64,000 bases of DNA, from assembly GCA_947629205.1 (NCBI GenBank), contig CANRCV010000004.1, positions 441 through 64,440 of the forward strand. Reading direction: 5' to 3'. Within the stretch, counting starts at the first letter, position 1. Each line of letters opens with the position of its first letter. A program made the translations under genes and the position numbers. Source of the DNA: an uncultured Bacilli bacterium. Its GTDB lineage: Bacteria > Bacillota_I > Bacilli_A > RF39 > UBA660. Below are positions 1,453 to 40,738 of this stretch, one piece after another. Below the pieces are notes generated by a model that saw nothing but the letters and a program-made list of their open reading frames with translations, was not told where the DNA came from and did not search any database.

Positions 1453-3186
1453 CTAACATTGTCCTAATTCTTTAGCTAAATCATCACATTCTTCTTGTGG
1501 ACTAGCTCCAACAGCATATTCAATCGTTAAAGTTACTCCAGAACGAATTGTATCTCCTTTTTTACGACTTTGACTAAGAATCGTTCCTTCTTCGTATTCA
1601 TCAGTAACAACTTCTTTTTTATTTAAAGTTAAACCATTTTCCGTACAGAATTTTTCGATTTCTTCTAAAGTATAAGAACCATCTGTAAAGTCTGGATATT
1701 TATTAATATTCGGTGTATAGAAAGTAATTTCATCTCCAGAAGATAATTTTTCTCCTTCTTTTACGGATTGTTCAATAATTTCTCCTTCTACAGCATCTTC
1801 ATAATTTTCTACTTCTTTTTTCTCTATAAAGACTTTAATTCCTAAAGCTTCTAAATAGCCCTTAACCTCTAAATAATTTTTACCTACATAGTTTTCTATG
1901 GCTATTTGATCATCTCCAACTGAAACAAATAAAGTAATAGCCGTATTTCTTGTTCTTTTACTATTTGCAGCAGGATTGGTTTTAATTACTTTTCCTTCTT
2001 CAATCTCACTAGAAGGTTGTTCCATTTGTTCATCATTTACAATAAACCCAGCTTCTTGTAATTTTACAATAGCTTCTTGAATCGTTAAATTAGTAACATC
2101 AGGAACAGTTGCTTCTTTTTCCGTTGTAATTACTGGTATTAAAACAATTAAACAAGTAATAATTACGACAAGTCCAGTAAAAATAGATGCTAAAATAATT
2201 AATAACTTGTTTTGTTTTTTTAAATCATTTTTCGTAATTTGTTTTGCTATTTGTTCTTCACCTTCACTTTCTTTTTTTGTTTCTTTTAACATTTTTGTTA
2301 CTTTCGTATCTTCAAAATTATTTTCTGGATATTTAAACGTAATTTTTGCTTCTTTGGCTCTTTCATCATTCATACAAGTTTTTAAATCTTCATGCATTTC
2401 TCGAGCATCTGCATAACGATTTTTAGGATTTTTAGCGGTTGCTTTTAAAATAATATTACAAATACTATTTGGTAAGTTTGGCAATTCTTCTTTAATATCA
2501 GGCATTGGTTCTTTTAAATGTTTTAAGGCAATTTCTACAGCGTTATCTCCTCGAAAGGGAAGTTTTCCTGTTAAAAGTTCATACATCACAACTCCCATAG
2601 AATAAATATCACTTTGTAAGCTTGCTCCTTTACCATTTGCTTGTTCTGGTGGTAAATAATGAACACTTCCCATGACCGAATTGGTTTGGGTAAGTTGAGT
2701 GGCATTCATCGCCATAGCAATACCAAAATCTGTAATTTTTACTAACCCATTTTCTAAAATCATAATATTTTGGGGTTTAATATCACGGTGAATGATATAG
2801 GAGTCATGGGCAACACTCATTCCATCCGTAATTTGAAGCATGATATCCACAACTTCACTCGTTGTTAATTTTCCTCGTTTTTTTAATAAATCTTTTAGAT
2901 GTTTTCCTTCAATATATTCCATAACGATATAGTAATTTCCACTATCTTCTCCAACATCATAAACCTCAACAATATTAGGATGATTTAAACTACTTGCTGA
3001 TAAAGCTTCTCTTTGAAAACGACGGACAAACTTTTCATCACTAGCTAAATCTCCTCTTAATAATTTAATAGCAACATTGCGATCTAATATGGTATCATAG
3101 GCAAGATAAACATTTGCCATTCCACCTTCACCAATACTTTTGATAATTTGATAACGATCACTAATCTTTTGCCCCTTCATTATCAT
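1453..3186 (-). CDS. prkC: Ser/Thr protein kinase with extracellular PASTA repeats
   Basis: 577 aa; Hanks kinase motifs (HRDIKPQN, DFGIA), central TM, C-terminal PASTA-like repeats; ATGA overlap with prpC. Confidence 0.9.
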   Translation of the reverse strand: MIMKGQKISDRYQIIKSIGEGGMANVYLAYDTILDRNVAIKLLRGDLASDEKFVRRFQREALSASSLNHPNIVEVYDVGEDSGNYYIVMEYIEGKHLKDLLKKRGKLTTSEVVDIMLQITDGMSVAHDSYIIHRDIKPQNIMILENGLVKITDFGIAMAMNATQLTQTNSVMGSVHYLPPEQANGKGASLQSDIYSMGVVMYELLTGKLPFRGDNAVEIALKHLKEPMPDIKEELPNLPNSICNIILKATAKNPKNRYADAREMHEDLKTCMNDERAKEAKITFKYPENNFEDTKVTKMLKETKKESEGEEQIAKQITKNDLKKQNKLLIILASIFTGLVVIITCLIVLIPVITTEKEATVPDVTNLTIQEAIVKLQEAGFIVNDEQMEQPSSEIEEGKVIKTNPAANSKRTRNTAITLFVSVGDDQIAIENYVGKNYLEVKGYLEALGIKVFIEKKEVENYEDAVEGEIIEQSVKEGEKLSSGDEITFYTPNINKYPDFTDGSYTLEEIEKFCTENGLTLNKKEVVTDEYEEGTILSQSRKKGDTIRSGVTLTIEYAVGASPQEECDDLAKELGQC

Positions 3187-16284: not shown

Positions 16285-16719
16285 TTAAATATCTATACTA
16301 AAGAATGTAGAATCATCAGGAACAAATCCAAATTTTTTATAACAGGTATGAGCAGGAATACGAAAATTTCTACTCCATAGTTTCATAGCAGTACAATTAT
16401 GATTCTTACATATATTTTGTACGACTTCTAACATTTTGGTTGCAATGTGATGCTTACGATACTCCGGTTTTACACAAACATGATTTAAGATAGCATAGGT
16501 ATTCATATCTTCAAAAATTGTCGGTATAATAGCAATTCTTGTATGAGCAATAATTTTATCATCTAATTTTCCTACTACATATATTTGATTACGATCTTTG
16601 TATTCTTGAAAAAGTTCTATTGCTTCTTCATACTTTGTTTCTTCTTCAAAACATTCATTACATAAATCTACAATTCCTCGTATATCAGCAACTGTTGCAA
16701 TTTGAAATTCGACATTCAT
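16285..16719 (-). CDS. GNAT-family N-acetyltransferase
   Basis: 144 aa; acetyl-CoA binding-like segment (HHIATKMLEVV); RBS GAGGTG 9 nt upstream. Confidence 0.7.
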   Translation of the reverse strand: MNVEFQIATVADIRGIVDLCNECFEEETKYEEAIELFQEYKDRNQIYVVGKLDDKIIAHTRIAIIPTIFEDMNTYAILNHVCVKPEYRKHHIATKMLEVVQNICKNHNCTAMKLWSRNFRIPAHTCYKKFGFVPDDSTFFSIDI

Positions 16720-16740: not shown

Positions 16741-16772
16741 TTTAAGTTTATAACCCCCCCCCCGTGTGTCAA
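16741..16772 (-). promoter_or_regulatory. Putative sigmaA promoter of GNAT gene with poly(G) in the spacer
   Basis: Minus strand TTGACA(16772..16767)-CAC-G10-T-TATAAA(16752..16747); spacer 14 nt in the sequenced state, 17 nt if the tract were G13. Confidence 0.45.
16754..16763 (-). repeat. Homopolymeric G10 tract (C10 on + strand) in promoter spacer
   Basis: Ten consecutive C on + strand in an otherwise ~28% GC region. Confidence 0.9.
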
Positions 16773-36786: not shown

Positions 36787-37917
36787 TTATTTTCCTAAAT
36801 ATGTAATTCTTGCATATCCATTTCCAGAATTTCCAACCATTGTATTTTGTGTTCCATCATGTTTGGGCATAACCTCTTTCCCGGATTTCATTTCCGTATT
36901 TGTAAAAACAAGTCCGGAATAATGAATAGAATCTCCAGTATGTTGAATGTTATTTTCAACAGATTCTTGTTTTATGGCATTACATCCCTCATATCCAGAA
37001 ATAAAGGATGAACCACCTGAGGCTGAGGTTGCATTTGTAATTCCTTCACTACGACCACCATAATAGCCTCCTCCAGCACCAGCAACACCACAATCGCCAT
37101 TACCAACACTACCTGATCCAGCACATTGGCCATCTCCAACCCCACTTTGTCCTTTACCAAAAGCATAACCAGTTGTTTGATTGATTGCTGATTTTGTTCC
37201 AACTAAATCAGCAGATAAGCCACCTCCTGCTCCTGGAGCGTAACTCCAGCTAGCTCCTCCACCACCTGCTGCAACCATAATTCTAGATTTTAAACTAGCA
37301 AAAGAGTCCCACAAACCATTTACAAGACGAATGTCGGTGGCTCCTCCTCCACCACCACTACTTTCATCATCTGCTTTATCAGGAACACCATTACCACCAC
37401 CATTATATCCACCAAGAGATTCTACTCTTTTACTAGCATTTGCACCAGCACCACCTACATAAAGATATAATGTTTGCTCTTTTTGTAAGCTTATTTCACC
37501 TTTGGTATATGCACCATTTCCTCCATCATTATAAGACACACCTTGATAAAGAGATTTTCCACCTTCAGCTCCCCATAATTCTATTTTATATTTTCCTTGT
37601 AATGGTACTGTAAATGATTGTTCACTTCCTGTATAATCAAATGTCCATTCTGTTCCTTCTTTTATAATAAAATTAATGCTACATGTCGTTGGACTCTTTT
37701 TTAGACTTGATACAAATAATCCCCATCTCTCTGTATCCCATTCTCCAATGGCATCATTATCACATTCTACAATTATATCTCCATAGTTTCCTTTTTGTGG
37801 AACGGTATTTGTTGTTTCTCCATTTATTTTCAAAGCAATGATATTTACATCGTTTTTTAAACTAAAATCAGGTACAACGCCTTTTATAACATCAAAACTT
37901 TTTTCTGTTTTATACAT
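36787..37917 (-). CDS. Phase-variable surface protein with ALK/LTK-like glycine-rich domain; annotated ORF is the out-of-frame body of a longer gene
   Basis: 376 aa ORF; no RBS before its Met; reading frame open upstream through the G10 tract; Gly-rich region GGGYYGGRSEGITNATSASGGSSFISG resembles ALK GRD GGGGYIGGNAASNND...DGVSFIS (Pfam Gly_rich). Confidence 0.7.
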   Translation of the reverse strand: MYKTEKSFDVIKGVVPDFSLKNDVNIIALKINGETTNTVPQKGNYGDIIVECDNDAIGEWDTERWGLFVSSLKKSPTTCSINFIIKEGTEWTFDYTGSEQSFTVPLQGKYKIELWGAEGGKSLYQGVSYNDGGNGAYTKGEISLQKEQTLYLYVGGAGANASKRVESLGGYNGGGNGVPDKADDESSGGGGGATDIRLVNGLWDSFASLKSRIMVAAGGGGASWSYAPGAGGGLSADLVGTKSAINQTTGYAFGKGQSGVGDGQCAGSGSVGNGDCGVAGAGGGYYGGRSEGITNATSASGGSSFISGYEGCNAIKQESVENNIQHTGDSIHYSGLVFTNTEMKSGKEVMPKHDGTQNTMVGNSGNGYARITYLGK

Positions 37918-38035
37918 AGCAAAAGTATGGTATAGTGTTATACCACCAATTAATAAAATAATTCCTATAATTGTACTAATTAAAATTTGTTTTTGTTTTT
38001 TATTTTTGATAAATCTTTCTAATCTAGGTTTGTGT

Positions 38036-38098
38036 TTATCTAATATACCCCCCCCCCAGACTAGACTCTAGAGTTGGGAGGTTTTTATTTTTCTTCAT
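38036..38098 (-). other. Leader ORF ending just after the G10 tract (OFF-state product of the phase-variable gene)
   Basis: GGAGGAAG RBS + ATG 38098; encodes MKKNKNLPTLESSLGGGYIR-stop; a 9-G allele would fuse it in frame to ...ILDKHKPRLERFIKNKKQKQILISTIIGIILLIGGITLYHTFA-MYKTEKSF (TM anchor). Confidence 0.7.
38048..38057 (-). repeat. Homopolymeric G10 tract (C10 on + strand) inside 5' coding region
   Basis: Ten consecutive C at 38048..38057; frame analysis shows G9 (or G12) gives an in-frame full-length protein. Confidence 0.9.
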
Positions 38099-38123
38099 TT
38101 TTTCTTCCTCCTACTATACTTTT

Positions 38124-38152
38124 ATTATAAACGAATTTCTTATTCTTGAAAA
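38124..38152 (-). promoter_or_regulatory. SigmaA-type promoter of phase-variable gene copy A
   Basis: Minus strand TTTTCA(38152..38147)-17 nt-TATAAT(38129..38124); identical in copy B. Confidence 0.5.
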
Positions 38153-38181: not shown

Positions 38182-38229
38182 TTTGACAATTAAACTGAAA
38201 TTTCATCATTTTTCAGTTTAATTGTCAAA
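38182..38229. repeat. Perfect palindromic element (19-bp stem, 10-nt loop), copy 2; likely terminator of upstream paralog
   Basis: tttgacaattaaactgaaa-tttcatcatt-tttcagtttaattgtcaaa; core and loop shared with 22081..22118. Confidence 0.75.
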
Positions 38230-38234
38230 TACTT

Positions 38235-39371
38235 TTACTGATTTTCATTTATAAATATTCTATAAGGATTTTGTTGAGTTCCATTACCACTTTGAAATAA
38301 TACTTTTGATTTAAGATAGAAAGACGGATAAATTTTAGTATTACTATAATATCCAGCATGAAAGTTCCATAATTGGCCTGTTTCATCCATGTACCATGCA
38401 TCTGGATTCCCAGAGATCGTTGTTGTCAAAAACCATTGTTTGTTCTTGCTAAATATCCAATTATTTATTACACATGAGCTATTATCACTCTCATTATTCC
38501 ATAGTTTTAAAGATTGTTGCATACATTGTGTTCTAGTTTTTAAAGCTGATCCGCTTGTTGCATATCCATAATCACTTGCATATATTAATCCAATTTTTGT
38601 ATTAGTTGATTTAGAATAACCATCACGAACACTATTTCCACGTTCTGCTTTATAAAATTCAGTTACGGTACTTAAATTGGTTTCCCCTAAATACCATTTT
38701 GCAATATCAATATACGTTTGATATGATTTTATACTACCCCAAAATTCTTCATTTAAAATATTTGTATTTAATTCGCTACTAATCCAATTATTTTGTTGTA
38801 ATTCTGGATGTCCATACCAAGAAGCTTCACTGTAGTTAACATATTTAATTAATTTTACTCTATCTTCATAAATTCCATTCTCACTTGATTGAGTAGGTAT
38901 TATACCTATAATTCGATATAAATTGTTTTCACTACATTCTCCATTTTCTTCTAAACATACATAGTTATTAGGATTAGCACCTATATATCGATAGTCCGTT
39001 TTAGCACTTTCACCAGTTTGATCAGTAGCTTCGTGTGTTTGCACTATTAATCCACTTGCTCCATCTGCAACATTTGTTACTTTTGATTTTAAATAAGTAG
39101 AAAATATTGGAGCATTAAAATCAATGGTACATTTAATTCTACTTTGATTATTGCTGTTTTTTAATTTTAAAGACCATGTTGTATCATCCCAATCTGCTTC
39201 TACTCCACCATCACATTTTATATCTTTCTTAGTAAATCCTTCATTTTGATTAGGAAAAGAAACATCACTTGTTTTTACACCATTTATACTAAAAGCAAGT
39301 GTTACATCTCCACTACTAAAATCAGGCACAACACCTTTTATAACATTAAAAGACTTTTCCATTTTATACAT
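38235..39371 (-). CDS. Phase-variable surface protein paralog (divergent C-terminal domain); annotated ORF is out-of-frame body
   Basis: 378 aa; first ~85 aa homologous to 36787..37917 product (MYK.EKSF.VIKGVVPDFS...EWD..W); C-terminal Trp/Tyr-rich domain ending GNGTQQNPYRI; same upstream architecture. Confidence 0.7.
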   Translation of the reverse strand: MYKMEKSFNVIKGVVPDFSSGDVTLAFSINGVKTSDVSFPNQNEGFTKKDIKCDGGVEADWDDTTWSLKLKNSNNQSRIKCTIDFNAPIFSTYLKSKVTNVADGASGLIVQTHEATDQTGESAKTDYRYIGANPNNYVCLEENGECSENNLYRIIGIIPTQSSENGIYEDRVKLIKYVNYSEASWYGHPELQQNNWISSELNTNILNEEFWGSIKSYQTYIDIAKWYLGETNLSTVTEFYKAERGNSVRDGYSKSTNTKIGLIYASDYGYATSGSALKTRTQCMQQSLKLWNNESDNSSCVINNWIFSKNKQWFLTTTISGNPDAWYMDETGQLWNFHAGYYSNTKIYPSFYLKSKVLFQSGNGTQQNPYRIFINENQ

Positions 39372-39486
39372 AGCAAAAGTGCGGTATAAAGTTATACCAC
39401 CAATTAGTACTATGATTCCTACTATTGTACTAATTAAAATTTGTTTTTGTTTTTTATTTTTAATAAATCTTTCTAATCTAGGTTTA

Positions 39487-39549
39487 TTATTTAATATACC
39501 CCCCCCCCAGACTAGATTTGCTGGTTGGGAGGTTTTTATTTTTCTTCAT
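39487..39549 (-). other. Leader ORF ending after G10 tract, copy B
   Basis: ATG 39549; MKKNKNLPTSKSSLGGGYIK-stop; G9 allele fuses to ...ILNNKPRLERFIKNKKQKQILISTIVGIIVLIGGITLYRTFA-MYKMEKSF. Confidence 0.7.
39499..39508 (-). repeat. Homopolymeric G10 tract (C10 on + strand) inside 5' coding region, copy B
   Basis: Ten consecutive C at 39499..39508; same -1 requirement for in-frame fusion as copy A. Confidence 0.9.
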
Positions 39550-39574
39550 TTTTTCTTCCTCCTACTATATTTTT

Positions 39575-39603
39575 ATTATAAACGAATTTCTTATTCTTGA
39601 AAA
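39575..39603 (-). promoter_or_regulatory. SigmaA-type promoter of phase-variable gene copy B
   Basis: TTTTCA(39603..39598)-17 nt-TATAAT(39580..39575), within a block nearly identical to copy A. Confidence 0.5.
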
Positions 39604-39655: not shown

Positions 39656-40738
39656 TTAATTGCTACAATTATTGTAGCATTTTTTCATATAATCATCTGT
39701 CATACCTGCAATAAAGTCAATGACTTTACGTGCTATTGTTGTACTACTTATATACTCTTCTGTCATATCTTTTAAGAATTTTTTATAAATCTCTGATTTG
39801 GTATTATGTATTTCAATATCATTTTTATATTTATCAAATAAAGTTCTAAACATCTTCTCATACATTTTAATCTCTTGTTTCGTATTGGCTTTTAAATAAA
39901 TATTTTCCATATTAAAGGCTTTTAAATCCACTAAAGCTTTAAAAATGGGTTTACTCATTTTAATATAAGGTTTTCCTTTACTATTTTTGATGATATCACT
40001 TACAAAAGTATTGACGATATTTTTATTTTCTTCTCCAATTAACTTGGTAATATTTTTGGGTAAGTTTTCTTTTTTGATGACACCTAAACGGATGGCATCT
40101 TCAATATCTTTTCCAATGTATGCAATAATATCACTAATTCTTACAACACAACCTTCTAACGTCATAGGTCTTAATTTTTTAATCATTCTCTTATCCACAT
40201 AGCATTGTTTATATTCCTCTAAAAACTCTTCTTTTGTTTTTTTAACAGGACGATATTCATTTAAAGGAAGTTCTCCGTTATGACACATAATAGCATCCAA
40301 AACTTGAACCGTTATGTTTCTACCACGGCCATTTTGTTCTAGATTCATTAAAACACGAACGCTTTCTATATTATGATTGAAATAGCCTTCTCCATTTTCT
40401 AAACTAATTTCATTTAAAATACTTTCTCCCACATGACCAAAAGGAACGTGTCCTAAATCATGACCAAGAGCTGCTGCTTCAATTAAGTCTTCATTTAATT
40501 TTAAGTTTCTGCCAATAGTTCTAGCTATTTTACTTACCAATTGAACGTGGATCATACGTTTTGTAATATGATCATCTTCATTGTAACTAAACACTTGGGT
40601 TTTATCTGCATATCTCGTATAACTCAAGGAATAAATAATACGATCAATATCACGAAAAAAATCCGTTCTATACGGGTCTTTTTCTTCTTTTTTTAAACGA
40701 ATAGCTTCTTCATTTACACAAGCATAGCGACTCAACAT
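39656..40738 (-). CDS. dgt: dGTPase-like HD-domain deoxynucleoside triphosphate triphosphohydrolase
   Basis: 360 aa; HD motif AALGHDLGHVPFGH and downstream His/Asp. Confidence 0.75.
   Translation of the reverse strand: MLSRYACVNEEAIRLKKEEKDPYRTDFFRDIDRIIYSLSYTRYADKTQVFSYNEDDHITKRMIHVQLVSKIARTIGRNLKLNEDLIEAAALGHDLGHVPFGHVGESILNEISLENGEGYFNHNIESVRVLMNLEQNGRGRNITVQVLDAIMCHNGELPLNEYRPVKKTKEEFLEEYKQCYVDKRMIKKLRPMTLEGCVVRISDIIAYIGKDIEDAIRLGVIKKENLPKNITKLIGEENKNIVNTFVSDIIKNSKGKPYIKMSKPIFKALVDLKAFNMENIYLKANTKQEIKMYEKMFRTLFDKYKNDIEIHNTKSEIYKKFLKDMTEEYISSTTIARKVIDFIAGMTDDYMKKCYNNCSN

What the first reader, a model, noticed from the sequence alone, without database searches (positions are those of the whole stretch)
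39371..39603. Second copy of the same G10 frameshift switch on the adjacent paralog (copy B)
Copy B carries the same promoter (TTTTCA-17-TATAAT) and RBS. Its leader is MKKNKNLPTSKSSLGGGYIK-stop, and its G10 tract lies at 39508..39499. Deleting one G fuses the leader to ...ILNNKPRLERFIKNKKQKQ-ILISTIVGIIVLIGGITLY-RTFAMYKMEKSF, with no intervening stop (I checked). Both copies sit in the same -1-from-ON phase. Two independent contingency loci with the same leader design argue that this is a designed switch, not a chance pseudogene. It would allow combinatorial expression: A on, B on, both, or neither.
Basis: seen in the sequence. Interest (0 to 1): 0.85.

Follow-up and report, generated by a model that had tools for sequence, protein, structure and literature searches.

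The report
Poly-G on/off switch, surface-protein gene
A run of ten G's just after the start codon keeps this surface-protein gene of an uncultured low-GC gut-type bacterium out of frame. Losing one G restores it, which is ordinary phase variation, here built on a leader cassette that relatives reuse on dozens of genes.

Summary
On the minus strand there is a promoter match (TTTTCA-17-TATAAT), an AGGAGG ribosome-binding site and an ATG at 39549. A 20-codon leader follows, containing a G10 tract at 39508..39499. G9 or G12 fuses the leader to a 437/438-aa protein; G8, G10 and G11 stop after 18-20 codons.

The interpretation, a slipped-strand contingency switch, is well supported. G/C runs this long are about 1000-fold over-represented. 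The same leader plus G-tract sits on about 55 loci in other genomes, about 45 of them in one rabbit-gut MAG. There the tracts are G8-G11, mostly G10 and out of frame, yet all ORFs are intact (dN/dS 0.34-0.49). In-frame alleles exist, including a 68%-identical homologue of copy A. At two related loci, near-identical strains from different samples differ only in tract length (G8 vs G10), and this flips ON/OFF.

Two corrections. Copies A and B share only the first ~145 residues. Switching at this exact locus was not observed, because only one assembly exists.

Copy B is predicted to be membrane-anchored, with an Ig-like stalk and an enlarged C-type-lectin-like head. The mechanism is textbook; the lineage and the cassette-based family are new. 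Interest is moderate.

The parts
39575..39603 (-). Sigma-70-type promoter match for copy B: -35 TTTTCA (39603..39598), 17-nt spacer, -10 TATAAT (39580..39575).
   Evidence: Consensus scan, 10/12 match. The element is identical upstream of copy A. Leader loci in other genomes each carry their own TTGAAA/TTGTCA-17-TAGAAT element.
39558..39563 (-). Shine-Dalgarno sequence AGGAGG, 8 nt upstream of the leader ATG.
   Evidence: Read directly from the sequence. GGAGG is present at the same place in the leader loci of other genomes.
39487..39549 (-). Leader ORF as it stands at G10: MKKNKNLPTSKSSLGGGYIK plus TAA stop (the OFF product).
   Evidence: Translation.
39524..39534 (-). Conserved leader 11-mer AACCTCCCAAC (encodes N-L-P-T). 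It is complementary to the SD and, with one G-U pair, to the G-tract. Its role is unknown.
   Evidence: Present in both window copies. It was used as the search anchor that found 57 leaders, so its invariance there is by ascertainment. One variant, AGCCTCCCAAC, was seen in L062. RNA folds pair it with the poly-G or with the SD, z about -2.
39499..39508 (-). G10 homopolymeric tract, the switch. G9 or G12 is ON; G8, G10 and G11 are OFF.
   Evidence: Tract-length census in homologous loci. Polymorphism between samples at related loci.
39372..39455 (-). Predicted transmembrane helix or signal anchor (residues 32-59 of the G9 protein). It is encoded only when the leader is in frame.
   Evidence: AlphaFold model, helix 32-59. 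The only in-frame ATG downstream of the tract (39371) lies after this helix.
38235..39371 (-). ORF as a gene caller sees it at G10 (378 aa, starting MYKMEKSF). It lacks the membrane helix. It encodes the Ig-like domain (about 39320..39114) and the C-type-lectin-like domain (about 39101..38238).
38182..38229 (-). 19-bp perfect stem-loop immediately after the copy B stop codon. It is a probable transcript end separating copy B from copy A's promoter. It has no U-tail.
   Evidence: RNA fold -21.3 kcal/mol, z -6.2.
36787..38152 (-). Copy A, the neighbouring unit of the same design: promoter 38152..38124, ATG 38098, G10 at 38057..38048, body down to 36787. Its C-terminus is a PF12810 glycine-rich domain.

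Best explanation
Copy B is a translational phase-variable (contingency) gene.

A constitutive-looking promoter and a strong ribosome-binding site drive translation from the ATG at 39549. Fourteen codons later the ribosome enters a G-tract. During DNA replication this homopolymer gains or loses G's by slipped-strand mispairing at high frequency.

At G9 (or G12) the leader is in frame. The cell then makes a 437-aa protein with a short basic cytoplasmic N-terminus, one membrane helix (or a long signal peptide), an Ig-like stalk and an enlarged C-type-lectin-like head exposed on the surface. The head is presumably a ligand- or glycan-binding adhesin-type domain.

At G10, as assembled here, or at G8 or G11, translation stops after 18-20 codons. 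No alternative start precedes the membrane helix, so no surface protein is made.

Copy A carries the same cassette and switches independently. A population is therefore expected to be a mixture of A/B expression states.

Shown here: the anatomy, the frame logic, the non-random tract, the conserved cassette, purifying selection on out-of-frame copies, ON alleles in relatives, and tract-only differences between near-identical strains at related loci.

Inferred: replication slippage at this particular locus, the switching rate, surface exposure, and the binding function.
For: 1. Anatomy and frame logic.
2. G10 runs are about 1000-fold over expectation (3 observed against about 0.001). They are absent from about 115 kb of related DNA without the leader. 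GGG is a rare Gly codon, 8%.
3. The same leader plus G-tract is found at 57 places in other genomes, about 45 of them in one MAG (GCA_947631035.1). Among the 46 loci with a downstream ORF of at least 150 codons, including the two in this window, tract lengths are G8 x2, G9 x2, G10 x39, G11 x3. In all of them G9 is the in-frame length. All have open bodies of 239-689 codons, whichever phase they are in.
4. dN/dS of bodies downstream of out-of-frame tracts is 0.34-0.49. These are genes, not decaying pseudogenes.
5. ON alleles occur in public proteins. P0055 is 68% identical to copy A with the leader in frame. P0126, P0128, P0124, P0140 and P0221 are also in frame. P0151 has GGGG, P0131 has GG, and P0157 has an interrupted LGRG.
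6. There is direct polymorphism at two related loci. L073 (G8) and L074 (G10) have 0/250 and 0/1000 flank mismatches. L077 (G10, ON) and L078/L079 (G8, OFF) have 0/96 and 1/1000 mismatches. The matching 90%-identity protein clusters hold both full-length and truncated calls of the same gene.
7. The closest copy-B homologues that lack a G-tract start with ATG exactly where copy B reads CCT-AGA (MKLQKF versus PRLERF). Copy B therefore depends on the upstream ATG.
8. Precedents exist. In C. jejuni, mutational bias sets a modal G9/G10 (PMC3401435). In Bifidobacterium breve, a G-tract separates the signal-peptide ORF from the pilin body (PMC9187656). In a metagenome-resolved mycoplasma, the consensus is OFF with minority ON variants (PMC5476646).
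Against: 1. No second assembly or read set of the window's own genome was available, so length variation at 39499..39508 itself is unobserved.
2. 39 of 46 loci sit at exactly G10. That is narrower than a freely drifting tract would suggest. It needs a mutational attractor, selection for OFF, concerted evolution of the cassette, or de Bruijn bulge-popping in assemblies of a repeated leader.
3. Promoter matches are not enriched in this AT-rich region (23 found against 17.7 expected), so promoter use rests on conservation only.
4. No expression data exist.
Confidence: 0.85

Rival explanations
1. Programmed recoding. G10 is the functional, conserved length. The full-length protein is made from G10 templates when RNA polymerase slips on the C10 template (producing G9 or G12 transcripts), or when the ribosome shifts +1 on GGG-GGG-GGG. 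Every family member would then be expressed at a low constant level, with no heritable ON/OFF states.
For: - 39 of 46 loci, spread over at least six genomes, are exactly G10 and out of frame by the same amount.
- GGG is a rare codon, 8% of Gly, which could slow decoding.
- The leader contains an anti-SD-like CCUCCC that can pair with the tract.
- Some slippage on a 10-nt homopolymer is physically plausible and could make OFF leaky. This last point is general knowledge, not tested here.
Against: - G8, G9 and G11 alleles with intact bodies exist in the same genome.
- In one related locus G10 is the in-frame length and G8 the out-of-frame one.
- Near-identical strains differ in tract length at the DNA level.
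- The distance from the tract to the 0-frame stop and the codons after the tract vary (YIK*, YIR*, SIRK*, LLFR*). No conserved shift-site context exists beyond the tract itself.
- G10 also occurs in non-coding DNA in this window (16754..16763) and inside a membrane-helix coding region in L063. That fits a mutational preferred length, not a recoding signal.
Confidence: 0.07
2. Pseudogene. Copy B is a dead gene inactivated by a 1-nt insertion in a chance G-run, and the upstream ATG is irrelevant.
For: As assembled, the gene is out of frame, and gene callers report only the anchorless 378-aa ORF. One family member elsewhere (L062) carries a real nonsense mutation.
Against: - A 419-codon body with no stop in a 28.5% GC genome.
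- The identical design in the neighbouring gene and in about 55 other loci.
- dN/dS well below 1 in out-of-frame paralogues.
- ON alleles in relatives.
Confidence: 0.03
3. Sequencing or assembly artefact. The true tract is G9 and the gene is simply intact. G10 comes from homopolymer miscalling, or from the assembler collapsing a repeated leader onto the commonest path.
For: - Contigs in the rabbit-gut assemblies often end at these leaders or inside a G-run.
- Illumina has documented trouble reading through G-tracts (PMC9187656).
- The leader is a multi-copy repeat, a setting in which bulge removal could homogenise tract length (inference).
Against: - G10 recurs in several independent MAG sets: the window's own assembly, three rabbit-gut MAGs and two third-party-assembly MAGs.
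- G8, G9 and G11 are called in the same assemblies.
- Control templates in PMC9187656 showed only about 0.5-5% miscalls, too few to flip a consensus.
- Even a true G9 would be a hypermutable tract with the same consequences.
Confidence: 0.05

Closest known systems
Campylobacter jejuni poly-G/C contingency genes (Bayliss et al. 2012, PMC3401435)
   Same: Intragenic G8-G11 tracts in a low-GC genome switch surface-structure genes ON/OFF by plus or minus 1 nt. A narrow modal length (G9/G10) is set by insertion bias in short tracts and deletion bias in long ones. Tens of loci occur per genome.
   Different: C. jejuni is a Gram-negative pathogen. Its tracts sit at varied positions in unrelated genes, each with its own ON length. 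Here one portable promoter-RBS-leader-tract cassette is reused on a family of anchored surface proteins. Rates and bias are unmeasured here.
Bifidobacterium breve UCC2003 sortase-pilus G-tract switch (PMC9187656)
   Same: A Gram-positive gut commensal. A G-tract separates a short ORF encoding the secretion signal from the body of a surface protein. The reference sequence is out of frame, and tract lengths are heterogeneous in the population.
   Different: A high-GC actinobacterium with G11/G12 tracts at two pilus operons rather than a large family. The products are LPXTG pilins, not N-terminally anchored lectin-like proteins.
Neisseria opa genes (CTCTT repeats in the signal-peptide coding region; from my own knowledge, not checked in a paper here)
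   Same: A multigene family of surface adhesins. Each copy has its own promoter and a repeat in the leader-coding region, and each switches independently, giving combinatorial expression.
   Different: Pentanucleotide repeats, not a homopolymer. Outer-membrane beta-barrel proteins. About 11 copies.
Mollicute variable surface proteins with homopolymers or short repeats (for example BspA-like genes of Ca. Mycoplasma girerdii, PMC5476646; M. hominis Vaa poly-A, from my own knowledge)
   Same: A low-GC Bacilli-related lineage. Repeats sit in the 5' coding region of surface proteins. The metagenome consensus is often OFF, with ON minorities.
   Different: Those use poly-A or dinucleotide repeats and lipoprotein anchors. 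This organism encodes a penicillin-binding-protein-like gene and uses poly-G, which is conspicuous at 28.5% GC.
Thomasclavelia ramosa IgA protease N-terminal domain (PDB 9qa6; PMC12237041)
   Different: Copy B has no M64 catalytic domain and no HExxH motif. The function of that domain is unknown even in the protease, where it is dispensable for catalysis.

Membership tests
SSR-mediated translational phase-variable (contingency) locus | Homopolymeric tract of at least 7-8 nt inside the reading frame, far longer than base composition predicts. | tested here: met
   G10 at 39508..39499. About 0.001 runs of this length are expected in the window; three are present.
SSR-mediated translational phase-variable (contingency) locus | A 1-nt change in tract length toggles between a full-length ORF and early termination, and no alternative start rescues the product. 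| tested here: met
   G9 and G12 give 437/438 aa; G8, G10 and G11 give 18-20 aa. The first downstream in-frame ATG lies after the membrane helix. G-tract-free homologues have their ATG where copy B has CCT-AGA.
SSR-mediated translational phase-variable (contingency) locus | Tract length is polymorphic among homologous or orthologous loci while the ORF stays intact in both phases. | tested here: met
   Paralogues and homologues show G8-G11 with intact bodies. Two orthologous pairs differ only in tract length. ON proteins imply G6, G9 and G12. This was met for the cassette family, not for this exact locus.
SSR-mediated translational phase-variable (contingency) locus | Length heterogeneity at this very locus within or between populations. 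| not testable with these tools
   Only one contig carries the window's proteins. The metagenome scan gave only chance hits. No reads were available.
SSR-mediated translational phase-variable (contingency) locus | High-frequency, reversible, heritable switching of the phenotype in a clonal lineage. | not testable with these tools
   This needs culture or single-cell or deep sequencing.
SSR-mediated translational phase-variable (contingency) locus | The product is a surface or host-interaction determinant (typical, not obligatory). | tested here: met
   By prediction only: a membrane helix, an Ig-like domain and a C-type-lectin-like domain.
Programmed frameshift or transcriptional-slippage recoding site | The same out-of-frame arrangement is fixed in all homologues, and in-frame alleles are absent. 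| tested here: not met
   In-frame G9 alleles exist (L017, L046, P0055 and others). In one locus G10 is the in-frame length.
Programmed frameshift or transcriptional-slippage recoding site | A conserved shift-site context or stimulator beyond the run itself (an adjacent stop or hungry codon, or a conserved structure with covariation). | tested here: inconclusive
   The 0-frame stop lies 3-5 codons after the tract and the sequence in between varies. CCUCCC/poly-G pairing is predicted at z about -2. Covariation cannot be assessed because the motif was the search anchor.
Pseudogene | Relaxed constraint: dN/dS near 1 and accumulation of stops or indels downstream of the lesion. | tested here: not met
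   Copy B has a 419-codon open body. dN/dS is 0.34-0.49 in ten pairs of family members, including copy B against L001 at 0.46.
C-type lectin-like domain, IgA-protease-NTD type (copy B ectodomain) | Fold similarity to the solved domain. | tested here: met
M64 IgA metallopeptidase | Catalytic domain with an HExxHxxxGxxD zinc motif. | tested here: not met
   No such motif occurs in the 437-aa sequence (read), and there is no Pfam peptidase hit.

The most novel reading that the evidence does not exclude
The near-uniform G10 (39 of 46 loci, always one base from ON in the common leader type) may not be just a mutational resting length. It could be a designed 'parking' state of a cassette-based antigenic-variation system. 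In that system a small-genome uncultured gut bacterium keeps about 45 differently headed surface proteins silent and lets each cell draw a few at random. Alternatively, or in addition, RNA-polymerase or ribosome slippage on G10 could give every copy a low basal expression. Either case would be a programmed, genome-wide surface-repertoire generator in a commensal Bacillota lineage, built from one mobile 5' module.
Probability: 0.12. Interest if true: 0.7.

Novelty: new member of a known kind. Interest (0 to 1): 0.45.

Why it matters
SSR phase variation is documented mostly in a handful of pathogens. Here it appears in uncultured, low-GC Bacilli known only from metagenome assemblies, at least some from rabbit gut. 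It takes an unusually modular form: one promoter-RBS-leader-G-tract cassette fused to many different surface-protein bodies. These include lectin-like and glycine-rich heads and at least three kinds of N-terminal anchor.

Three consequences follow.

1. Annotation pipelines systematically mis-call these genes as anchorless fragments, or from spurious GTG starts.
2. The family gives a ready list of candidate host- or phage-interaction proteins in an uncultured lineage.
3. Metagenomic read data could measure ON/OFF frequencies in vivo.

For this single locus the significance is modest. It is a clear, well-supported example of a known mechanism.

Tried and rejected
- **Metagenome scan.** The leader pattern found only four chance hits with G6, so it gave no population data.
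- **The window's own proteins.** Exact look-ups of copy B's ORF (P0001) and of P0055, the in-frame copy-A homologue from a related genome, found no contig on record. DNA of the closest relative could therefore not be read.
- **N-terminal protein search.** A word-indexed search with the 90-aa N-terminus returned only three short hits. It was effectively wasted.
- **Synteny route.** DnaE relatives (at most 69% identity) have a different neighbourhood with no A/B orthologues and no G-runs.
- **Taxon.** No source names were attached to any close hit.
- **Phage origin.** No viral-contig match to the leader and no PHROG for copy B. Only copy A's glycine-rich domain matches phage families of unknown function.
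- **Sortase motif.** The leader's LPTS is N-terminal and lacks the LPxTG form. Rejected by inspection.
- **RNA switch.** CCUCCC pairing with the SD or with poly-G is predicted at z about -2. It cannot be tested for covariation, so it is left as an unexplained conserved element.
- **Structure libraries.** afdb50 was unavailable. A PDB sequence-profile search found nothing.
Full report
**What is in the sequence**

All features lie on the minus strand, in the 106-bp gap after an HD-domain phosphohydrolase gene (39656..40738; Pfam HD and HD_assoc).
- A TTTTCA-17-TATAAT promoter match lies at 39603..39575.
- AGGAGG lies at 39563..39558.
- An ATG lies at 39549.

The reading frame from that ATG is MKKNKNLPTSKSSLGGGYIK-stop. 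The three glycines and the G of the preceding CTG form a G10 run at 39508..39499. Replacing G10 by G9 or G12 in silico gives an uninterrupted 437- or 438-codon ORF ending at 38235. G8, G10 and G11 terminate after 18-20 codons.

The ORF that a gene caller reports at G10 (38235..39371, 378 aa) is identical to database entry P0001, which is known from a single 64,447-nt contig. It begins at a methionine that lies after the predicted membrane helix.

Copy A, immediately downstream, has the same promoter, RBS, leader and G10 (38057..38048) in the same phase. A 19-bp perfect hairpin lies between the two units (38229..38182; -21.3 kcal/mol, z -6.2). Each therefore looks like its own transcription unit.

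**It is not chance**

The window is 28.5% GC. Base composition predicts about 0.001 C10 runs on the + strand, and there are three. The only other G/C run of six or more is a single C6. About 115 kb of DNA from related low-GC genomes that lacks this leader has no G/C run of seven or more. GGG accounts for 8% of glycine codons in the window's long ORFs. Coding need therefore does not explain three consecutive GGG codons flanked by further G's.

**What the comparative data show**

I scanned one genome per species for the leader pattern AACCTCCCAAC-N(8-20)-GTCTGGGGGG. It returned 51 stretches.
- About 45 are in a single rabbit-gut MAG, GCA_947631035.1 ('uncultured Bacilli bacterium').
- The rest are in two other rabbit MAGs and in two MAGs labelled Muribaculaceae.
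- The hits in Emergencia and in the JGI metagenomes are chance matches with G6.

Of the 46 loci with a downstream ORF of at least 150 codons, counting the two in this window, the tracts are G8 (2), G9 (2), G10 (39) and G11 (3).
- In every one of them G9 is the in-frame length.
- Every body is open for 239-689 codons, whatever the phase.
- Each locus has its own TTGAAA- or TTGTCA-17-TAGAAT promoter match and GGAGG.

The bodies are diverged paralogues, 36-85% identical within C-terminal families. Several unrelated C-terminal families and at least three types of N-terminal anchor occur. dN/dS over the region downstream of the tract is 0.34-0.49 in ten pairs, including copy B against L001 at 0.46. 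These are therefore working genes that are out of frame in the consensus, not decaying ones. One copy elsewhere (L062) does carry a genuine TGG-to-TAG mutation, so occasional decay occurs.

**In-frame alleles exist**

Several public proteins read straight through the leader.
- P0055 is 68% identical to copy A over its full length and begins MKKKNKNLPTSNSSLGGGILDNHKPRLEKF.
- P0126, P0128, P0124, P0140 and P0221 also read through the leader.
- P0151 has four glycines, P0131 has two, and P0157 has an interrupted LGRG.

Two loci in the big MAG are G9 and read through (L017, L046).

**Tract length is the only difference between near-identical strains**

Two 90%-identity protein clusters contain both full-length and N-terminally truncated calls of the same gene. 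Reading the DNA gave the following.

| Locus | Assembly | Tract | State | Flank mismatches |
|---|---|---|---|---|
| X | L073 (ERZ14231470) | G8 | OFF from the RBS-proximal ATG | 0/250 upstream, 0/1000 downstream, against L074 |
| X | L074 (ERZ14864030) | G10 | OFF | reference for X |
| Y | L077 (ERZ13410428) | G10 | ON (517 aa) | 0/96 upstream, 1/1000 downstream, against L078 |
| Y | L078 (ERZ14864030), L079 (ERZ14867586) | G8 | OFF | 0/250 and 0/1000 against each other |

In locus X the in-frame lengths are G9 and G12. At G8 the gene caller instead used an upstream ATG that overlaps the SD, which produced protein P0046. In locus Y the leader is one base shorter, so the in-frame lengths are G7 and G10.

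This is the signature of a hypermutable repeat. It also shows that G10 is not a fixed recoding signal.

**Dependence on the upstream ATG**

The closest homologues of copy B (P0002, 53% identical, and others) have no G-tract. They start MKLQKF with their own promoter and RBS, next to a divergent HTH_3 gene. Copy B reads PRLERF at that position and has no start codon there. The first in-frame ATG comes after the membrane helix. Without the leader the protein could not be inserted into the membrane or exported.

In an exhaustive profile search the N-terminal module (helix plus Ig-like domain) matched 489 clusters. Most start at the MKL position. A minority carry the leader.

**What the protein is**

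An AlphaFold model built on 40 homologues (pLDDT 86, pTM 0.80) shows four parts.
- A disordered, basic N-terminus.
- A helix at residues 32-59.
- A beta-sandwich at residues 77-145.
- A compact alpha/beta domain from about residue 150 to 437.

The paper on that structure describes the protease's N-terminal domain as an enlarged C-type-lectin-like domain. It is dispensable for catalysis, and its own closest match is the same Lcl domain (PMC12237041). I infer that this is the part that aligns with copy B.

Copy B has no metallopeptidase motif and no Pfam, NCBIfam, PHROG or PDB sequence hit. Copy A shares only the first ~145 residues with B (61% identity) and carries a PF12810 glycine-rich domain instead. 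'Paralog' is therefore true of the anchor and stalk module only.

**Mechanism and rivals**

The best explanation is classical slipped-strand phase variation of a surface protein, ON at G9 or G12 and OFF as assembled. I put it at about 0.85.

The one feature needing comment is the dominance of G10. Several explanations are possible.
- In C. jejuni, short tracts gain and long tracts lose G's. This gives a modal G9/G10 set by mutation rather than selection (PMC3401435).
- A metagenome consensus reports each locus's commonest state. In Ca. Mycoplasma girerdii the consensus was likewise often OFF, with ON minorities (PMC5476646).
- G10 also occurs in this window in non-coding DNA (16754..16763) and, in L063, inside a membrane-helix coding region. 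That fits a preferred length of G-tracts in these organisms.
- Concerted evolution of the cassette, and bulge-popping by assemblers on a multi-copy leader, could also narrow the distribution. I could not test these.

The rivals rank as follows.
- Programmed recoding (RNA-polymerase or ribosome slippage on a fixed G10), about 0.07. The DNA-level polymorphism, the in-frame alleles, the locus where G10 is ON, and the variable context after the tract all count against it. Some leaky slippage in the OFF state is not excluded.
- Assembly or sequencing artefact, about 0.05. G10 recurs across independent MAG sets, and other lengths are called in the same assemblies.
- Pseudogene, about 0.03. The family evidence excludes it.

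**Comparison with known systems and novelty**

Functionally this locus matches the poly-G contingency genes of Campylobacter. It is even closer to the Bifidobacterium breve pilus switch, where a G-tract separates the signal-peptide ORF from the body (PMC9187656). It also resembles Neisseria opa genes, which have a repeat in the leader-coding region of a multigene adhesin family (my own knowledge, not checked here).

It meets every sequence-testable criterion for an SSR contingency locus. Within-population heterogeneity at this exact site, and phenotypic switching, remain untested.

Full-text searches found no description of this leader cassette or of poly-G switching in these uncultured Bacilli. 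The mechanism is not new. The lineage, the reusable 5' cassette and the size of the family are. I rate it a new member of a known kind, interest 0.45. The interpretation itself was right.

Noticed in passing
window 16754..16763 (C10 on the + strand, G10 on the minus strand): A third 10-nt tract, this one intergenic. It lies 35 nt upstream of a GNAT acetyltransferase ORF (16285..16719, minus strand), between a perfect TTGACA and TATAAA. The spacer is 14 nt at G10 and would be 17 nt at G13. It may be a transcriptional phase-variation element or simply another hypermutable tract.
   Followed up: partly
L063 2424..2433 and L064 2424..2433 (GCA_947630615.1 CANRIH010000046.1 and ENA ERZ27249343): A family member with the ordinary MKLEKF start carries a G10 inside the membrane-helix coding region (...GMCLGGG then YNIK-stop). 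Hand translation shows G9 restores the frame. The flanks (GTCTG-G10-TATAAT) resemble the leader cassette. Both contigs also end inside another G-run.
   Followed up: partly
GCA_947631035.1 (loci L001-L052): About 45 loci in one MAG share the leader/G-tract cassette. It is fused to at least three N-terminal anchor types and several unrelated C-terminal families. Many contigs of that assembly begin or end at the cassette.
   Followed up: partly
L062 about 2101..2500 (ENA ERZ27249106 NODE_878): A leader variant (AGCCTCCCAAC) with G10 whose body has a TGG-to-TAG nonsense change. This copy is genuinely decayed. The 243-aa protein P0084 is the fragment called downstream of the stop.
   Followed up: no
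L073 about 1480..1570: At G8 an alternative ATG overlapping the Shine-Dalgarno sequence (ATGGAGGAAG...) is in frame with the body, and gene callers use it (P0046). Similar SD-overlapping ATGs occur in some rabbit-MAG leaders (MEEKQM...). Whether they are ever used is unknown.
   Followed up: no
window 39524..39534 and 38073..38083: The leader 11-mer AACCTCCCAAC contains CCUCC(C). This can pair either with the SD GGAGG or, with one G-U pair, with the G-tract. Predicted folds choose one or the other (z about -2). Its conservation could be for the peptide (NLPT), for RNA structure or for DNA slippage. This is unresolved.
   Followed up: partly
window 38182..38229: A 19-bp perfect inverted repeat directly after the copy B stop codon, with no U-tail (fold z -6.2).
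   Followed up: partly
L053, L054-L057 (about 80 nt upstream of the homologue's start): G-tract-free homologues of copy B (P0002, P0005) sit next to a divergently transcribed small HTH_3 regulator gene and share a conserved TTGACAAGCATACAAAATGTTGGTAT promoter region. This suggests a different, regulator-based control of the same protein family, sometimes in the same genome as G-tract copies.
   Followed up: no
window 36787..37917 (copy A body): Copy A's glycine-rich PF12810 domain matches several phage protein families of unknown function (PHROGs, E down to 1.6e-42). Copy B matches none.
   Followed up: no
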